Assembly (NCBI GenBank): GCA_964412165.1
Contig: CAYPMW010000005.1
Coordinates: forward strand, 2,576-66,575
Direction of reading: 5' to 3'
Length of the DNA stretch: 64,000 bases
Source: an uncultured Gammaproteobacteria bacterium
GTDB taxonomy: Bacteria > Patescibacteriota > Microgenomatia > UBA10105
In this document: piece by piece, positions 36,001 to 45,000 of the stretch
How the letters are laid out: each line of letters begins with the position of its first letter
Position numbering within the stretch: position 1 is the stretch's first letter
Program-made: the position numbers

Positions 36001-39000
36001 CAGCTAGAATTCCACACTCTTGAGTAATAAATTCCGCATCTCCTAAAGACTTACGGGCAATGAAAAACCCAAGTCCAGACAGGCATGCAGTTTTAAATGT
36101 GTTTTGCTTTGCCAGGCTACACGTTTGCAAAGAACGACGGATATCATATTTAAACCTTTCCATAAAGACAGTGGGTTGGTTTCTACCACATGCTTGTTGG
36201 TACTTATTCTCTAAAACATTACAGGGGTAAAGCGGTTGCGTTTGGGAATAAAAAGTCACGGGTGCGTCTCGAGCAAATTCCATCAGCACTCCGTCGTAGC
36301 ATGATTCACGAGCTTGCGTTAGGGTGTTACAGGCACGAAGTGCTGGATCAAGTTGCGTTACATGATAGAAGCTGGCTATTCCGTGGCCGATTCCGTGAAA
36401 GCAGGTTGACAGTTTCCGGGGTGATTGACTTTTGGCGCACGCTTCGTCTACCTCTTTCATTTTACTCAAATTGCTCGTAAACACCTGGTCTAAAAATCCA
36501 TGGTAACAGCCAAATCCAAACTGTTCACCGCAGTCAACAATGCCTTTGGTGTCATTTACGGTATACATGAGGCTGCCTAAGACGTGGGCCAAATCGTGAA
36601 TGCGAGATGAGCTGAGTCTATCTGTCTTTTCGATATCAGTCAGGTGCTTCCATGCGACTTTAGCGCCTTTTTCACGCATGTAGGTTTCAAGGTAAGTTTG
36701 CTGTTTTTGCTCAGTGAACTGGGCAAACTGTGATGGAGTAGCAGGGATGGTAGTACTCCTTTTCCTGAGTGCTTGGATCCAGGAAATAAAAGTTTGCCAT
36801 CTATTTTGGACCTTGGTTACCCAATTAATTGAGGGAGAAGGCGAGGCGAGAGGTGTATCGTTTTCCTGCACAACGGTAAGGACTGCCCGTTGGTGAGGGT
36901 TGAGGTGATCGTGATAGCGCCACGTGCCTATTTTGCCTGTCTGAAATTTCCATGTTTCTCCGGGAAGGAGTGGTTTTTTGGGGTCAAAATCACGGTATAG
37001 CGTGTGGGTAGGGTGAGGGTTACTTGCTGGCCAGTGAGGTCGCGTATCCTGATTCACAAACGTTACCCAAGTATTTTGATCAATTGTAAGTTCAGTAGGT
37101 ATAAAACCAGTTTCAGTCATCTCCACCACCTGATTTCCATGAGCATAAATATTAAGAGGATGAAAGAGTGAAAGAGTGGTTATTAAAAAGAGAAACTGGA
37201 GCATACCTTAACATTTTCAGTATGGCAGTCAAGTTGTATCTGGTCAAGACTTTTTAAGTTTAAGAAGATGGTGCTGGTTGGGGAGCTGAAGATTCAGCAG
37301 GGGCCGGAGCTGGCGCTGAAGATTCAGCCGGTTGAGTAGTTGTAGTTGATGAAGATGTATCTGTGCTGGTTGAAGTTGAAGGTGGAGTAGAAGTGCTACC
37401 TGATGATCCAGATGAACCTCCATCTGCCATACACCAGCCGCCGCTATCTGACATCCAATGGTATCCAGATGGACATGAACCGCTCGAGCTCGATGAGCTG
37501 GTACCACCAGACGAAGAAGTTGATGAGCTCGACTTGCAACTGCACGTACTCCAATCAAACCAGCCAGAGCCACATCCTGCTGAGGGGTAGCTACAAGAAC
37601 TTGAGCCTGATGAAGGTGTATAAGTGGATGAACCTGAACGGCAACTACAGGTTCCATAGTCATACCAACTGTTTGATCCGCAACCACCAGATGGAGGTGT
37701 ACATGATCCTGATCCTGATGATGAGTAAGAAGACGAGCGGCAGCTGCACGAGCTGTAATCGTACCAACTGTTATAACCGCAACCGCCACTTGGCGGAGTG
37801 CAGTATGTTGAGCCGCCGCTTGAAGAACCTCCGGAAGGATATTGACAACTACATGTCGACGAGTTCCAGGTGCCACTTCCACAACCCCAAGAAGGAGTAC
37901 TACAGCTACCAGGAGTATTAGTTTTACAAGTACATGAACCCCAGTCAAAATATGCATTATACCCAGTACAACCACCTGCGGGATAAGTGCAGGAAGAACT
38001 ACCACTACTACCACCGTAGGTATAAGGATTGTTTCCGGTATAGGTAGCGATACAGCCTCTACCATCCCAGTAGTAACCTGGACCACAGCTACTTTGTGTC
38101 AAGTTGGGGGAATAATAGTTATAACCACCGCCAGTATAATAACTTCCTCCTGGTGGGCTAGCTACACATTTACTGCCATCCCAGTTATATCCACCAGGAC
38201 AGGCTCCATCCCTGCATCTTTTAGTTACTGGATCATAAGGTTGGCTGCCACAATTATAACCTTCTGGGGGAGGAGTACTGCTGGTTGCTGTTCCACTTGG
38301 ATAGGATGTAGAAGTACCGCTTGGTACATATGTTCCTCCATCAGCCATGCACCACCCGGCTTGGCTGTATGATGGTGGCATCCAGTGGAAACCAGTCGGA
38401 CATTGGCCGGGAGAAGTTGGTTGTGGACCAGTTCCGGGTACAGTTCCAGGCAGCGGTGTAGTGGTATACGTCGTAGGCGCAGGTCCATAGTAGTAAGGTG
38501 GTGAATATGACCCAGGACCGCTTGAAGAGGGGTAGACACTATACGTACCTGGGCCTTGATAACCATACGTTCCTGGTGGTACTCCAGGGGTAGAATAATA
38601 CGGCGAATACGGCGTAAAACCAGGTTGTGTGAGAGTCGAAGTTGGTACGAGAGCATCGCCAATTAAAGTATAATTAGAAGGTGAATAATTACCAGAATTA
38701 CCCATGCACCACCCGCCGTTATCATACATCCAATGGTATCCGTTTGGACATACACCGGTACTTTCGGGATTTGGACCTTTTCCATACTCAAGGTTTGTCC
38801 CAGAAGTTTGGGTACTTGAAGTATAGGTGTTATAGGGAGGTGAACCACTAAATGAAAATGGAGAGACATAACTTGGAGAGAATGAATATGACGTTACCGG
38901 AATTGGCGCTCCGGGAGGCGGGCAAGGTGTGTTTGGGGCAAAAGGAGGAGATGGTAAGAAACATGCGGTAGCTGAGTCCCTGACTCCCAAACTGTATGAC

Positions 39001-42000: not shown

Positions 42001-45000
42001 TGAGCAATGGGTTCATCAAGTTTGGCTATTTCAGCGAGCGGAAAATCACCGGCACTCACTAGTTTGGACAATTCGTCGCGGACTTGAGCGCGCGAATTGA
42101 GGCCGTACAATTTGTCGCTTTCCTCAGGAGTGAGTAAACCCTGGTCTTTTAACTCCTGGATGCTTACTGATAATGCCTCAGGTATAGGAGCTTTTTGGCT
42201 GATATCAGATGCAGCATCCATAGCATGTTCACTTGCTCGTGAAACTGAATTCCAGATTTGAGCTGCAGCTGGAGGTGAAGTGAGAGAGAGATTTTGTGCC
42301 ACTACCTGGTGAAGGGCAGCGGTTTTTTCCACATCATTTAAGAATAACTGAGCTTGAGAAGTAGATGCGGAAGATTTGGTCATATCTTCAGTGAGTGTAC
42401 GCATAGTTTGGGTATAGGCAGAGAGTGCCGCATCCACTCGACTAAATTGTCCGCGTTGACTCAGTGCTCTGGCTTCATTGAGGCGTTCAGTGGCAAACGC
42501 CAGACGTAAAGACCCCTTTTGTACCGGATCAAACGTGAGCGTAAGCTGTGCGTTTTCTGCTAGTGTCTCTAGTGGGTAGAGGAGATTACCTGGAAGCGTA
42601 CCGGGGTTTTGGTTTAAAGTTGCATCGGGAGGAATTTCAGGAGGCGGAAGTTTTTCGAATTCCGAGTAACTTACTCCTAACACTCGTGGTTGGGTATAGT
42701 AGTACGGGCCCCAATCAAAGAAGGCAGTGCGGTTATAGGCAGCGATTGCTTGGGTTGGTGTAGTCAAGAAAATACAGAGGAAAGTGATCCTGGCTATAGA
42801 GCGAACAAATCTGTTTTGTGTGGGCAGTCGCATGATTAGGTATAATTAGTATTAATTAAGTAAAACAGGTTTGTATACGTTCTGTCAAGGGAAATTAGTC
42901 TAGTTATAGTAGAGGAGTGTATTGTCATAGTGCTGTGGAAAAATTCCAGGTCATTCCAGCTGGGCAACTCCAGGTTTGAGAACAACCGCCAGAAGCATTA
43001 CTTTCGTAGCGGCACGAACTATAACAGTAGTGTTGCCCAGCTGGACACATGCTCAATATACATCAATATTTATTGATATATTACTAATTAGCGTACTTCA
43101 AATATTGAATACTTGTCAAGAGAGTATTTGGCATCTGATAGAGGAAAGAATCGTGTTCCCAAAAGTGTGTTTAGAGTGTAAACCACCCCGAAAAGTTCGG
43201 ATATTTGGCGAATGAAATGGAACTAACGCTATGCACCCAAACACCATGAACGGTAATTGGGATTCTGGATTTGGTTGCAGCGGGAGATGCGATCTGAGCT
43301 ATTTTTCGACCAATCGGCAACTGATACGCCGATTTGTCGGAAACAGTTTTGCTGGTATTTTGTTTCCGAACAGAAATTAATCATCCGAGTCATATCACCC
43401 ACATATCGGTAGCTCATGGCGATAATTACTCCCATGATGCAGGTACTTCGAGCGTGATCCGTGGGCATGAGCTCACAGTTTTGCCTCATTCGAGTTTGAT
43501 CTTGGGTAAATCCCACCTGATTTGTGCCGACAGTGACAAAACACTCATTTTGCAGAAGGAAGGGAACGCCTAGACAGAGTTCTGCGACTTTAGCCCAATT
43601 ATGGTTGGTGATAAGAGCGAAATAAGAACTTTGGTAACGGTAGCACAGTTTTTGGTATTGTTCAGACAGTGAGTTACATGGATAATACGGGTCGTTAGCA
43701 CGGACATATTTTCCTGGGTGATCAGTGTTGGTCGAACTTGATGAATTCTCCATAAATACACCACTATAGCAGCGTTCTCGATTATCGATTGAATCAAGCA
43801 CATCACACAGCGCCAATGCTTGAGGTGCTTCCATATCATGGACATACAATGCCGCATGACCGAGGCCGTGGAGACATTCAAAATATATAAGTGGTGAAGT
43901 GTAGTCTTTAAGCTTACCGCACACCTGAGAAAAATCCTTGGTAAGATTGTCTGTTAACGAGAGTTTTTTTTCGTTCAAGTATGCCTCTAGTGTCCCGTGG
44001 TAGCAGCCTCCATGGCACGTTGAGTCGCATTGAGCATACACCTGGGGAACATCTTTTCTCTTGTCATATTCAGCCCGGGATAGATAATGAGTGACTTCGT
44101 GGCAGCGAGCAAACACCTCAGGGTAGGCTTCATTTATTTTAAATAGTGTAAGTGTTTCCTTAAGGCCAAATTCATGTGCAAACAGTTCACCTACCTGTTG
44201 ATAACAATCATCACGGCCACCGATTTTATAACACTCACTCATCTGTTCCCGGACATACCCGCTTTTAGACTGCGTGGAATCGTATGGTTTAAGATTTATA
44301 CTCAAAGGTTTCCGGCCATAGTCGCGGATGAGGTGGTTGATATATTCATGGCAGGTTTTTATAAATGCGTTTGGTACAGAATTGCATAACAGGGGTGATG
44401 CAGATTGCCAACCAGGAGTTTCCTGGAAAATAAACTCTCCGGCAGCTGCCTGGGCGCATTGAGCTATATATTCGTCTTTTTTGAGAAGTTTACATATATC
44501 GAGCACTTTGGTTGCATTTCCAGCTGAATTTCCAGCGGCTAAGAATCCCAATGCATCCACACAACCGGCCACGATTTTTTGATGAGGAGCAGTAATACAA
44601 AGTTCTGAAACTTCAGCAAACGATTTTTTATGTCTTCCCAGAAGTACCATGGGTTGATTACGAGCACACGCAAACTTGAATTCTTCATCGATCTCAGTAC
44701 ACGGAGAGAGCGGAGACTGAGCTGGGTATATTTCGGAAGATGCATCACGCTCAAATTCCATAAACACGCCGTCGTAGCAAAATTCCTTACCTTGAGAAAT
44801 TTCCTTGCATGTATTCAAAGCTGATTTGAGTTCCTTTACCTGGTAAAAACTCGCGATACCATGTCCGATTCCATGGATGCAGCTTGCGTATGGTCCTGAA
44901 CCTGGAGTGCCTACTCCTTCGCATCCTTTTACTGCGTGTGGCAGATCAGCAAGATCTTTCTCAAATGCAGTATCAAGAAACCCGTGAAAACAGCCGAAGG

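What the first reader, a model, noticed from the sequence alone, without database searches (positions are those of the whole stretch)
37260..42833. 1857-aa secreted giant protein: triplicated about 280-aa helical module plus Cys-rich mini-domains
After a signal peptide the protein has three recognisable copies of a helical module. Each begins (T)FDP..(K/R)..L.LA...RL.EA.AL.. and contains Q.L..QGLL..EE.D.L and G.FP.A...KLDE segments. These alternate with mini-domains such as RCERPGQYWSFATRTCLP and RCPSGNYYSFTRNECVPRP. The C-terminal third is a Gly/Ser/Tyr/Cys-rich array of CP.G[YF]HWM..GGWCMADGG and CTPPSGGCG.NSWYDY..CSC units, ending in a Ser/Ala/Pro tail. This architecture (long helical stalk, disulfide-knotted tip) matches giant surface proteins of symbionts and episymbionts. 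Internal repeats make it prone to recombinational length variation.
Basis: seen in the sequence. Interest (0 to 1): 0.6.

Follow-up and report, generated by a model that had tools for sequence, protein, structure and literature searches.

The report
Conserved giant secreted protein of Microgenomates
This is a real 1857-residue secreted protein of an uncultured, small-genome bacterium (Microgenomates). It has three helical modules and many small disulfide hairpins, its function is unknown, it evolves as slowly as a ribosomal protein, and it may bind copper.

Summary
ORF 37260-42833(-) encodes 1857 aa: a signal peptide, three diverged copies of a helical module (27-33% identity, E 1e-24 to 1e-34; Pfam DUF5667 x3), two 80-aa six-Cys units between modules 2 and 3, and a Gly/Ser/Tyr/Pro/Cys-rich C-terminal third ending in a Ser/Thr/Pro tail. 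It is not a misassembly. Full-length orthologs with the same plan occur in 38 species genomes (Daviesbacteria, Levybacteria, Gottesmanbacteria, Blackburnbacteria, Woykebacteria), and DNA repeats are 70-82% identical over at most 80 nt.

The adhesin reading is only partly supported. The helices are predicted as antiparallel bundles, not a stalk. Where ribosomal protein L10 is encoded nearby, the protein diverges no faster than L10 (59.3% vs 59.9% mean identity). DUF5667 is a widespread N-terminal module of secreted proteins in this bacterial group, with varied C-terminal partner domains.

New here: every His and Met of the C-terminal third lies in three C-P-x-G-[YF]-H-W-M...G-W-C-M hairpins, and these residues are invariant in 30 orthologs. 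The predicted strand register puts His, Met, Met and Trp on one face, which is the CusF Cu(I) ligand set. Four-His cupredoxin genes flank the gene here and abut it in six further distinct related loci. Copper binding is untested.

No solved structure or paper covers the family.

The parts
37260..42833 (-). Complete gene for the 1857-aa secreted protein (stop codon 37260-37262)
   Evidence: ORF list. An identical protein is held in NCBI (P0001). Thirty full-length orthologs align end to end.
42741..42833 (-). Signal peptide, aa 1-31 (basic n-region, hydrophobic core, AIA/AY site)
   Evidence: This is the only 19-aa window with Kyte-Doolittle hydropathy above 1.4. Orthologs show a P-S-x-x-A consensus before the mature N-terminus. 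Cleavage is inferred, not shown.
42603..42740 (-). Conserved N-terminal motif, aa 32-77 ([FY][FY]DWGPYY...VLG.S)
   Evidence: D40, G42, Y44, Y45, V51, L52 and G53 are invariant in 30 orthologs. The motif is also present in most single-module relatives.
41727..42602 (-). Helical module 1, aa 78-369 (DUF5667 plus extension)
   Evidence: Pfam best stretch aa 78-170. Self-BLAST. Module HMM domain E 1e-80.
41550..41726 (-). Pro/Thr/Ser-rich linker, aa 370-428
   Evidence: Composition. Poorly conserved: 31% identity and 25% gaps.
40614..41549 (-). Helical module 2, aa 429-740
   Evidence: Self-BLAST. AF2 shows 13 helices; the module core (about aa 435-625) has pLDDT about 85-94, and the C-terminal extension is lower at about 45-70. 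HMM domain E 3e-81.
40374..40613 (-). Six-Cys unit A, aa 741-820 (three disulfide-bracketed beta-hairpins)
   Evidence: Alignment A6 invariants. AF2 strand pairs 747-750/754-757, 777-780/785-788 and 806-809/814-817, pLDDT 65-78. HMM E 8e-33.
40059..40298 (-). Six-Cys unit B, aa 846-925
   Evidence: Alignment A6. AF2 pLDDT 79-87. HMM E 2e-30. Sub-threshold Pfam CBM_14 hit of 15.4 bits.
38964..39995 (-). Helical module 3 with its long C-terminal extension, aa 947-1290. Part of this, aa 1181-1290, belongs to the best-conserved long stretch of the protein.
   Evidence: Self-BLAST. AF2 pLDDT 80-92. Mean identity 70% over aa 1181-1290, against about 50% elsewhere.
38889..38963 (-). Invariant junction C-F-L-P-S-P-P-F-x-P-N-T-P-C-P, aa 1291-1315
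   Evidence: 78% mean identity. C1291, P1296, P1297, F1298, N1301, T1302, P1303 and C1304 are invariant.
38703..38750 (-). His/Met hairpin 1, aa 1362-1377 (CPNGYHWMYDNGGWCM)
   Evidence: C, Y, H, M, Y, D, G, G, W, C and M are 30/30 conserved. AF2 strands 1366-1369/1375-1378.
38346..38402 (-). His/Met hairpin 2, aa 1478-1496 (CPTGFHWMPPSYSQAGWCM)
   Evidence: H, W, M, W, C and M are 29/29 conserved while the loop length varies. AF2 strands 1482-1485/1494-1497, pLDDT 72-85.
37536..37991 (-). Array of five four-Cys units (C-x6-C-x10-12-C-x-C), aa 1615-1766. This is the most variable part of the protein.
   Evidence: Regex on the sequence. Copy number is 1-6 among orthologs. 29% identity and 33% gaps.
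37428..37475 (-). His/Met hairpin 3, aa 1787-1802 (CPSGYHWMSDSGGWCM)
   Evidence: C, G, H, M and M are 30/30 conserved. The DNA is 82% identical to hairpin 1 over 56 nt (family D3).
37263..37415 (-). Ser/Thr/Ala/Pro tail, aa 1807-1857, with no membrane or sortase anchor
   Evidence: Sequence. No LPXTG motif and no C-terminal hydrophobic segment.
35831..37204 (-). Downstream gene, 55 bp away: signal peptide, four-His cupredoxin-like domain, then a Cys/His-rich domain (457 aa)
   Evidence: Pfam Cupredoxin_1 at 25.2 bits, below the 27-bit cut-off. The family profile hits solved cupredoxins at E 4e-9 to 1e-5. Relatives abut the giant gene in L013, L018, L027, L030, L040 and L007, and in L033 (upstream).
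43229..45778 (-). Upstream gene: a second four-His cupredoxin-like domain followed by two Cys/His-rich domains (849 aa)
   Evidence: Pfam Cupredoxin_1 at 25.8 bits. Its N-terminal domain is 49% identical to that of the downstream gene.

Best explanation
This is a vertically inherited, apparently single-copy, Sec-exported envelope protein of Microgenomates (Candidate Phyla Radiation, CPR). It is the triplicated-module form of a wider protein family with the plan: signal peptide, YYDW motif, DUF5667 helical module, Cys-rich Gly/Ser/Tyr/Pro region, Pro-rich tail.

Shown:
- the anatomy of the protein;
- its conservation and slow divergence;
- DUF5667 as a common N-terminal module of secreted proteins that carry different C-terminal domains.

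Inferred mechanism:
- After signal-peptide cleavage, the three antiparallel helical bundles act as rigid spacers or a scaffold outside the membrane.
- They carry two kinds of disulfide-stapled beta-hairpin mini-domains that expose aromatic, His and Met side chains as multivalent binding sites.
- The flexible Gly/Ser/Tyr/Pro segments and the Pro-rich tail lie in or on the cell wall.
- The ligand is not known. The candidates are a soft metal ion such as Cu(I), bound by the His-Met-Met-Trp hairpins, and a glycan or partner protein, bound by the six-Cys units.

The slow, uniform divergence points to a housekeeping envelope role rather than a variable host-recognition role.
For: - Signal peptide, and no other hydrophobic segment.
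- 46 Cys in the mature chain, all in small units with an even number of Cys.
- Thirty full-length orthologs at 44-51% identity with the same domain order.
- Thirty-eight species genomes across Daviesbacteria, Levybacteria, Gottesmanbacteria, Blackburnbacteria and Woykebacteria. This includes a complete 820,589-bp Daviesbacteria chromosome, in which the gene (5.1 kb) is 0.6% of the genome.
- The divergence rate equals that of ribosomal protein L10 encoded nearby (59.3% vs 59.9% over 36 pairs).
- The gene sits near rplJ (ribosomal protein L10) in 12 loci, with rplL (L7/L12) alongside in 10 of them.
- The module profile finds 6441 proteins at E <= 0.001 among 1.84 billion representatives. Dozens of single-module proteins of 500-1000 aa share the same N-terminal motif and Cys-rich tail.
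- Partner domains of DUF5667 in 71 relatives are all extracellular types: FecR, subtilase, PDZ, Ig-like, Kazal, antistasin, cupredoxin.
- AF2 predicts helical bundles at pLDDT about 90 and isolated two-strand hairpins.
- The best-conserved regions are the module-3 extension and junction (70-78% identity) and the three His/Met hairpins (68-79%).
Against: - No experiment, proteome or localisation data exist for any member; a literature search for DUF5667 and PF18915 returned zero papers.
- No anchoring device was found: no LPXTG, lipobox, SLH domain or C-terminal transmembrane segment. Retention on the cell is therefore assumed, and the protein could be released.
- Inter-domain geometry is unknown (pTM 0.35-0.43).
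- Disulfide formation is assumed; no Dsb or VKOR gene was seen among the window ORFs scanned.
- Synteny around the gene is mostly not conserved.
Confidence: 0.5

Rival explanations
1. Extracellular copper protein. The C-P-x-G-[YF]-H-W-M...G-W-C-M hairpins each bind one Cu(I) or Ag(I) ion through His plus two Met under a Trp cap, as CusF does. The protein would then work with the neighbouring four-His cupredoxin-like proteins in copper capture, buffering, delivery, or copper-dependent oxidative maturation of the envelope.
For: - All 3 His and 6 Met in the 567-aa C-terminal third lie in the three hairpins.
- Across 30 orthologs, 95 of 97 His and 190 of 194 Met of this region lie in such hairpins.
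- H, M and M are 30/30 or 29/29 conserved even where the loop length changes.
- The AF2 strand register (YHWM opposite WCM.) puts His, Met, Trp and Met on one face (inference).
- CusF uses His36, Met47 and Met49 with Trp44 capping (PMC9302797).
- Cupredoxin-domain genes flank the gene on both sides in the window.
- A small homolog overlaps the giant gene's stop codon in L013, L018, L027, L030 and L040 (L007 carries it too), and one lies just upstream in L033.
- The cupredoxin profile matches nitrite reductase and amicyanin (E 4e-9 to 1e-5). Its four invariant His form HxxH plus HxH, where HDH aligns with the HCH of nitrite reductase.
- DUF5667 is fused to this cupredoxin subtype in two metagenome proteins, and one of 71 relatives carries a cupredoxin domain.
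Against:
- Met, Trp and His could equally form the tiny hydrophobic core of a disulfide hairpin.
- Hairpin confidence is low to moderate (pLDDT 50-85).
- Most ortholog loci (about 29 of 36) have no cupredoxin gene within 4 kb.
- Only 2 of 80 cupredoxin loci carry a DUF5667 module.
- DUF5667 is fused to many unrelated domains.
- Single-module relatives have C-P-x-G-Y-H-R...P-C-L hairpins without the Met residues.
Confidence: 0.17
2. Host- or surface-attachment adhesin of an episymbiont. The helical modules would hold disulfide-rich binding domains away from the cell so they can grip a host cell or a polysaccharide such as chitin or peptidoglycan.
For: - The protein is secreted, large and Cys-rich, with exposed aromatic residues in every hairpin.
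- Eighteen of 34 six-Cys units give weak Pfam CBM_14 (chitin-binding peritrophin-A) hits, the best at 23.2 bits and E 8e-5.
- Large Cys-rich exported proteins of Peribacteria were proposed to act in attachment (PMC4736985).
- The four-Cys array varies in copy number between orthologs.
Against: - The protein diverges no faster than ribosomal protein L10, and the whole architecture is fixed across several candidate phyla. Host-specific adhesins usually vary fast.
- The CBM_14 hits cover only a 20-residue C-P-x-G..[FY]......C hairpin (profile positions 27-49), and they land on different hairpins in different members.
- The window's own units score 0 and 15.4 bits against a cut-off of 22.1.
- hhalign of the unit profile against tachycitin (1DQC) gives 0.8% probability.
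- There is no coiled-coil stalk.
Confidence: 0.2
3. Assembly artefact or pseudogene: the long ORF is produced by collapsed or chimeric repeats.
For: The protein has internal repeats at the protein level. Some related metagenome-assembled genomes show the gene split in two ORFs (L026, L032, L036), and one database relative (P0041) is visibly chimeric.
Against: - The reading frame is uninterrupted over 5.6 kb.
- Thirty independent full-length orthologs from different studies are collinear with it.
- DNA repeats are short and 70-82% identical.
- The module copies are only 27-33% identical.
Confidence: 0.02

Closest known systems
Pfam DUF5667 (PF18915) proteins; UniRef 'DUF5667 domain-containing protein' A0A1G1UYC8 (Candidatus Blackburnbacteria, P0027) is an ortholog
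   Same: The N-terminal part of each of the three modules matches the family model (153 bits in total). Like the family's other members, this protein has an N-terminal signal peptide and is extracellular. P0027 has the same full architecture at 44% identity.
   Different: The Pfam model covers only about 95 residues of each module, which spans about 290-340 aa. The typical family member is 200-450 aa with one copy followed by a Lys/Glu-rich helical region. The family has no known function, no solved structure and no paper.
Single-module relatives of 500-1000 aa (e.g. P0050, P0055, P0070)
   Same: They share the YYDW N-terminal motif, the full module including the C-terminal extension (I-P-x-E-[LI]-R...T-[LI]-R-P-D), the Cys-rich Gly/Ser/Tyr/Pro region with the same C-x6-C-G...C-x-C units and C-P-x-G-Y-H hairpins, and the Pro-rich tail.
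   Different: They have one module, not three. In all but one of those examined (P0048) there are no six-Cys units. In the members inspected, the hairpins read Y-H-R...P-C-L and lack the two Met.
CusF / SilF periplasmic Cu(I)/Ag(I) chaperones
   Same: The ligand set is the same: one His and two Met on adjacent beta-strands next to a Trp (predicted register). Like them, this protein is extracytoplasmic.
   Different: CusF is a five-stranded OB-fold with no disulfide. Here the site would sit on a 16-19-residue disulfide-stapled hairpin. There is no sequence similarity and binding is untested, so this is a 'works like' lead, not membership.
CBM14 / peritrophin-A and tachycitin chitin-binding domains
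   Same: Both are small six-Cys extracellular domains. They share a C-P-x-G-x-x-[FY]-x(5-6)-C-x-[WP] aromatic hairpin, which gives weak CBM_14 hits in 18 of 34 units.
   Different: The similarity is limited to one hairpin. The Cys spacing differs (C-x11-C-x16-C-x13-C-x15-C-x12-C). The window's units score below threshold, and hhalign against tachycitin gives 0.8%.
Large Cys-rich exported proteins of Peribacteria (Anantharaman et al. 2016, PMC4736985)
   Same: They are large CPR proteins with signal peptides and many Cys, encoded in gene clusters, and were proposed to be envelope or attachment proteins. In the window the gene also sits in a run of five same-strand genes for secreted Cys-rich proteins (35831-49953).
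   Different: They come from a different phylum. No homology was tested or claimed. Those proteins were reported as strain-variable, whereas this one is slowly evolving.

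Membership tests
Pfam DUF5667 (PF18915) | Score above the curated gathering cut-off (27 bits) against the family HMM | tested here: met
   153.1 bits, E 3.1e-45, three matched stretches, the best at aa 78-170.
Three-module Microgenomates ortholog group (P0002-P0031, L003-L040) | Collinear full-length alignment: signal peptide, YYDW motif, three modules, two six-Cys units, invariant C-F-L-P..C-P junction, 2-4 H-W-M hairpins, Pro-rich tail | tested here: met
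   Thirty sequences align at 48-54% identity with all these elements conserved. Thirty-eight genome loci were found.
CBM14 (peritrophin-A chitin-binding domain, PF01607) | Score above the gathering cut-off (22.1 bits) over the whole 53-position model | tested here: not met
   The window's unit A gives no hit and unit B gives 15.4 bits. Among orthologous units only one reaches 23.2 bits, summed over two stretches. All matches cover profile positions 27-49 only.
CBM14 (peritrophin-A chitin-binding domain, PF01607) | Profile-level homology to a solved member (tachycitin, 1DQC) | tested here: not met
   hhalign of A6 against the tachycitin sequence gives probability 0.8% over 17 aligned columns. 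The tachycitin sequence was verified against PDB entry 1dqc.
CBM14 (peritrophin-A chitin-binding domain, PF01607) | Disulfide topology C1-C3, C2-C6, C4-C5, and chitin binding | not testable with these tools
The AF2 secondary structure shows three consecutive hairpins, each bracketed by a Cys pair, which suggests C1-C2, C3-C4, C5-C6.
Sortase-anchored Gram-positive surface proteins | C-terminal LPXTG motif followed by a hydrophobic segment and a basic tail | tested here: not met
   No LPXTG near the C-terminus and no hydrophobic segment beyond the signal peptide. The tail ends ...APQPAPSS.
S-layer / SLH-anchored envelope proteins | SLH or another recognised cell-wall-binding domain | tested here: not met
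   The only significant Pfam hit is DUF5667, and NCBIfam gives none.
Fibrillar coiled-coil stalk adhesins | Long uninterrupted helices forming a coiled-coil rod | tested here: not met
   AF2 gives 10-13 helices per module, mostly 8-28 residues (one of 45), with antiparallel turns. Foldseek's nearest matches are helical-repeat or bundle proteins at E > 0.01. Caveat: pTM is only 0.35-0.43.
CusF-type Cu(I)/Ag(I) site | His plus two Met ligands with a capping Trp on neighbouring beta-strands | tested here: inconclusive
   The residues are present, invariant, and predicted to lie on one face of each hairpin. Geometry and binding cannot be tested here.
CusF-type Cu(I)/Ag(I) site | OB-fold and sequence similarity to CusF/SilF | tested here: not met
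   Neither the PDB sequence search with the hairpin region nor the search with the whole-family profile hits CusF/SilF.
Cupredoxins (for the flanking genes 35831-37204 and 43229-45778) | Cupredoxin fold-level sequence match | tested here: met
   Profile A7 hits copper nitrite reductase (E 3.7e-9), a blue copper domain protein (1e-5) and amicyanin (1e-5). Nine of 9 members hit Pfam Cupredoxin_1, the best at E 1.4e-6. The window's copies score 25-26 bits, just under the 27-bit cut-off.
Cupredoxins (for the flanking genes 35831-37204 and 43229-45778) | Type-1 copper ligands (His, Cys, His, Met) | tested here: not met
   There is no Cys in the domain. Instead there are four invariant His (H43, H46, H77, H79 of A7), with HDH aligned to the HCH of nitrite reductase.

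The most novel reading that the evidence does not exclude
The three or four invariant C-P-x-G-[YF]-H-W-M...G-W-C-M hairpins are a new minimal, disulfide-stapled Cu(I)/Ag(I)-binding motif (His-Met-Met under a Trp cap). They are displayed on a conserved giant envelope protein that works with a new class of four-His, Cys-less cupredoxins. Together they would form an extracellular copper-handling system, or a copper-dependent envelope-maturation system, specific to Microgenomates.
Probability: 0.15. Interest if true: 0.75.

Novelty: new member of a known kind. Interest (0 to 1): 0.45.

Why it matters
Microgenomates have genomes under 1 Mb, and no cultivated representative came up in this work. Despite this they keep a 5-6 kb gene for this protein, which evolves as slowly as a ribosomal protein. 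That makes it a candidate core component of the cell envelope, about which little appears to be known.

Three results make the family tractable. They are the delineation of its domains, the finding that DUF5667 is a general N-terminal scaffold of secreted proteins in the Candidate Phyla Radiation (CPR), and the restriction of His and Met to a few hairpins. Short peptides or fragments can now be tested directly for metal or glycan binding.

If the copper reading holds, it would reveal a new metal-binding motif and an extracellular copper system in organisms thought to have almost no redox metabolism.

Tried and rejected
- **Misassembly or repeat collapse.** Rejected. DNA repeats are short and diverged, and the architecture is conserved in 30 aligned full-length orthologs, with relatives in 38 species genomes.
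- **CBM14 membership.** Rejected beyond a one-hairpin motif resemblance.
- **Solved relatives by sequence.** None found with the whole-family profile, the six-Cys unit profile or the hairpin peptide.
- **NCBIfam.** No hit.
- **Word-indexed homolog searches.** The module profile returned only five proteins and the six-Cys profile none. The exhaustive representative search was needed instead.
- **Literature.** 'DUF5667' and 'PF18915' returned no papers.
- **Anchors.** No LPXTG, C-terminal transmembrane segment, SLH domain or coiled-coil rod.
- **Conserved operon.** Apart from the cupredoxin gene in a subclade, and rplJ (ribosomal protein L10) with rplL (L7/L12) mainly in Daviesbacteria and Levybacteria loci, neighbours differ between loci.
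- **Exact look-up of the window's own protein on a contig.** Failed.

Full report
**1. The observation**

The minus-strand ORF 37260-42833 is intact: 1857 codons, an ATG start and one terminal stop. An identical protein is already held in NCBI (P0001).

Pairwise BLASTP of segments of the protein shows three copies of one module. They lie at aa 78-346, 429-662 and 947-1219, at 27-33% identity and E 1e-24 to 1e-34. Pfam finds DUF5667 (PF18915) three times (153 bits, cut-off 27).

Cysteines are confined to aa 743-922 and aa 1291-1801, apart from one in the signal peptide. The mature chain therefore has 46. All the quoted Cys motifs are present. The C-terminal third is rich in Gly/Ser/Tyr/Pro/Cys and ends in a Ser/Thr/Ala/Pro tail.

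The only hydrophobic segment is N-terminal and is followed by AIA/AY. The mature protein is about 197 kDa with pI 4.7.

**2. Anatomy**

Reading from the N-terminus:

- signal peptide, aa 1-31
- conserved [FY][FY]DWGPYY...VLG motif, aa 32-77
- module 1, aa 78-369
- Pro/Thr/Ser linker
- module 2, aa 429-740
- two copies of an ~80-aa six-Cys unit, aa 741-820 and 846-925
- module 3 with a long extension, aa 947-1290
- invariant C-F-L-P-S-P-P-F-x-P-N-T-P-C-P junction
- three C-P-x-G-[YF]-H-W-M...G-W-C-M hairpins, starting at aa 1362, 1478 and 1787
- other two-Cys hairpins
- five C-x6-C-x10-12-C-x-C units, aa 1615-1766
- Pro-rich tail

AlphaFold2, run with a 30-sequence alignment, gives the following:

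| Region | Prediction | pLDDT |
|---|---|---|
| Helical modules | 10-13 antiparallel helices each | 80-94 in the module cores |
| Six-Cys units | three two-strand hairpins, each bracketed by a Cys pair | 65-87 |
| C-terminal third | isolated two-strand hairpins separated by disordered linkers | 30-85 |

Domain-to-domain geometry is not reliable (pTM 0.35-0.43).

**3. Not an artefact**

Thirty-three database proteins of 1358-1942 aa match at 44-51% identity. Thirty of the longest align collinearly with every element conserved.

A scan of one genome per species found 38 loci in Daviesbacteria, Levybacteria, Gottesmanbacteria, Blackburnbacteria, Woykebacteria and unnamed Microgenomates/Patescibacteria. 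One of them lies on a complete 820,589-bp chromosome.

At the DNA level there is no tandem repeat of note. The longest direct repeats are 80 nt at 70% identity and 56 nt at 82%. Assembly collapse and homologous recombination between copies are therefore both unlikely. Only the four-Cys units vary in number among orthologs, from 1 to 6.

**4. Relatives and the meaning of DUF5667**

An exhaustive profile search with the 220-residue module core found 6441 proteins at E <= 0.001 and 64 at E <= 1e-30, among 1.84 billion representatives. The strong hits include dozens of 500-1000-aa proteins with one module. They share the same YYDW N-terminal motif, the same module extension, a Cys-rich Gly/Ser/Tyr/Pro region with the same four-Cys units and C-P-x-G-Y-H hairpins, and a Pro-rich tail. 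The giant protein is thus a triplicated-module form of this plan. The six-Cys units were added in a subgroup; P0039 has three modules and none.

Weaker hits are the ordinary DUF5667 proteins of 200-450 aa: signal peptide, one DUF5667 domain, then a Lys/Glu-rich helical region.

Among 71 relatives the partner domains are FecR, subtilase, PDZ, Ig-like, Kazal, antistasin, PsbP-like and cupredoxin. DUF5667 therefore behaves as a general N-terminal extracellular scaffold for varied C-terminal domains.

No solved structure matches by sequence or by fold, and no paper mentions the family.

**5. Rate of evolution**

In nine loci where the gene lies near rplJ, the giant protein's pairwise identities average 59.3%, against 59.9% for ribosomal protein L10 (36 pairs).

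Within the protein, conservation is uneven:

| Region | Mean identity to the window protein |
|---|---|
| Module-3 extension, aa 1181-1290 | 70% |
| Cys-Pro junction, aa 1291-1315 | 78% |
| Three H-W-M hairpins | 68-79% |
| Four-Cys array | 29% |
| Linkers | 19-37% |

This pattern is that of a constrained housekeeping protein, not a fast-evolving host-recognition antigen.

**6. The His/Met hairpins**

The 567-residue C-terminal third contains only three His and six Met, and all nine lie in the three hairpins. Across 30 orthologs, 95 of 97 His and 190 of 194 Met of this region lie in such hairpins. The few exceptions are in two proteins where my pattern missed a hairpin. H, M and M are conserved 30/30 or 29/29, even where the loop length differs.

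The predicted strands are Y/F-H-W-M and W-C-M-x. In an antiparallel register this places His, Met, Trp and Met on one face, and Trp and Cys on the other.

His plus two Met with a capping Trp is the Cu(I)/Ag(I) site of CusF (PMC9302797, citing Xue et al. 2008). The alternative is that these residues form the small core of the hairpin.

**7. Copper-related neighbours**

The genes on both sides (35831-37204 and 43229-45778) start with a cupredoxin-like domain. Pfam Cupredoxin_1 scores 25-26 bits, just under the 27-bit cut-off.

A small membrane-anchored homolog overlaps the giant gene's stop codon in L013, L018, L027, L030 and L040. The same gene overlaps the stop in the record behind L001/L007. 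In L033 a homolog lies immediately upstream.

A profile of nine such domains hits copper nitrite reductase (E 3.7e-9), a blue-copper domain protein and amicyanin (E 1e-5). The domain has no Cys. It has four invariant His (HxxH and HxH), and its HDH aligns with the HCH of nitrite reductase. It is therefore a cupredoxin fold without a type-1 site.

The association is weaker from the cupredoxin's side. Only 2 of 80 metagenome loci carry a DUF5667 module. In both, the two domains are fused in one protein. Most ortholog loci have no cupredoxin gene within 4 kb. The link is real in a subclade but not general.

**8. The chitin-binding lead**

Eighteen of 34 six-Cys units give weak Pfam CBM_14 hits, the best at 23.2 bits. 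All of them cover only profile positions 27-49, a C-P-x-G..[FY]......C hairpin, and they land on different hairpins in different members. The window's own units score 0 and 15.4 bits. hhalign against tachycitin gives 0.8% probability. This is a motif resemblance, not membership.

**9. Verdict**

The protein is a real, conserved, secreted envelope protein of Microgenomates and a member of the uncharacterised DUF5667 family.

The 'stalk plus knotted tip adhesin' picture is only partly supported. The modules are bundles and the Cys units are partly internal. Evolution is slow, and no anchor was found: no LPXTG, SLH domain, lipobox or C-terminal transmembrane segment.

My best explanation, at confidence 0.5, is a scaffold of three helical pedestals displaying disulfide-stapled hairpins that bind a still unknown ligand. 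The most novel reading still open is copper binding by the His-Met-Met-Trp hairpins together with the four-His cupredoxins, at probability about 0.15.

Noticed in passing
window 35831-37204(-), 43229-45778(-), 48778-49953(-): Three secreted proteins share a Cys/His-rich domain with repeated motifs such as F-G-C-[YF]-H-G and C-x-H-G-x-G-H-[GS]. There is one copy in the 457-aa and 391-aa proteins and two in the 849-aa protein. It has no Pfam or NCBIfam match. In two of the three proteins it follows the four-His cupredoxin-like domain. A weak relative lies next to the giant gene in L028.
   Followed up: partly
window 45869-48415(-): An 848-aa secreted protein with several four-Cys units (G-S-C-x-D-Y-C-D-D-P...C..F-A), two M-G-N-C-K-[TS]-P-G-E-C-Y-D-Y-C-K units, and then about 400 aa of Y-Y-T-P / P-T-P-S-G-Y repeats. 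The M-G-N-C...C-x-D-W-C-K motif also occurs inside the single-module DUF5667 relative P0070. Together, 35831-49953 is a run of five same-strand genes for secreted Cys-rich proteins.
   Followed up: partly
window 33801-35315(-); L001 2640-4199; L020 9854-11371: A 504-aa polytopic membrane protein that looks like a GT-C/PMT-type glycosyltransferase, though Pfam gave no hit. It recurs within a few kb of the giant gene in two other genomes (33-36% identity, E 1e-66 to 7e-72). It could glycosylate the Ser/Thr-rich segments. A second PMT_2-like gene lies at 10961-12382.
   Followed up: partly
window 42948-43048 (-), intergenic region upstream of the giant gene: A long hairpin with perfect 13-nt arms (CCAGCTGGGCAAC / GTTGCCCAGCTGG). 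MFE is -47.9 kcal/mol and z = -4.66 against shuffles, and it is followed by a U-rich stretch. There is no Rfam match, and it is not found in the 40 related loci held at that point (L001-L040). It may be the terminator of the upstream gene or a 5' leader structure.
   Followed up: partly
L101 889-2388 and L107 5876-7264: Two metagenome proteins fuse a signal peptide, a DUF5667 domain and a Lys/Glu-rich helical region to a C-terminal four-His cupredoxin-like domain of the same subtype as the window's neighbours. The L107 protein also carries a Kazal-type motif.
   Followed up: yes
That is a core-genome position. This allowed the rate comparison with L10.
   Followed up: yes
L026, L032, L036; P0041: In three metagenome-assembled genomes the giant gene is split into two consecutive ORFs, either by a frameshift or by an assembly error. 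Database protein P0041 joins the giant protein's C-terminal part to an unrelated beta-barrel-like sequence and is probably a chimeric contig.
   Followed up: no
window 1-34000 vs 36000-48000: G+C is 35-41% over most of the left half of the window (two 2-kb bins reach 43-44%) but 44-49% across the Cys-rich gene cluster. The giant gene itself is 46-49%. This may reflect Gly/Ala/Pro/Ser-rich coding rather than foreign origin.
   Followed up: no
window 50385-53556 and 55110-59896: A PAS/GAF histidine kinase with an OmpR-type response regulator, and two tandem class A penicillin-binding proteins, lie just beyond the cluster. A Mn/Fe superoxide dismutase (62281-62892) and MsrA (29636-30238) are also in the window.
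   Followed up: no
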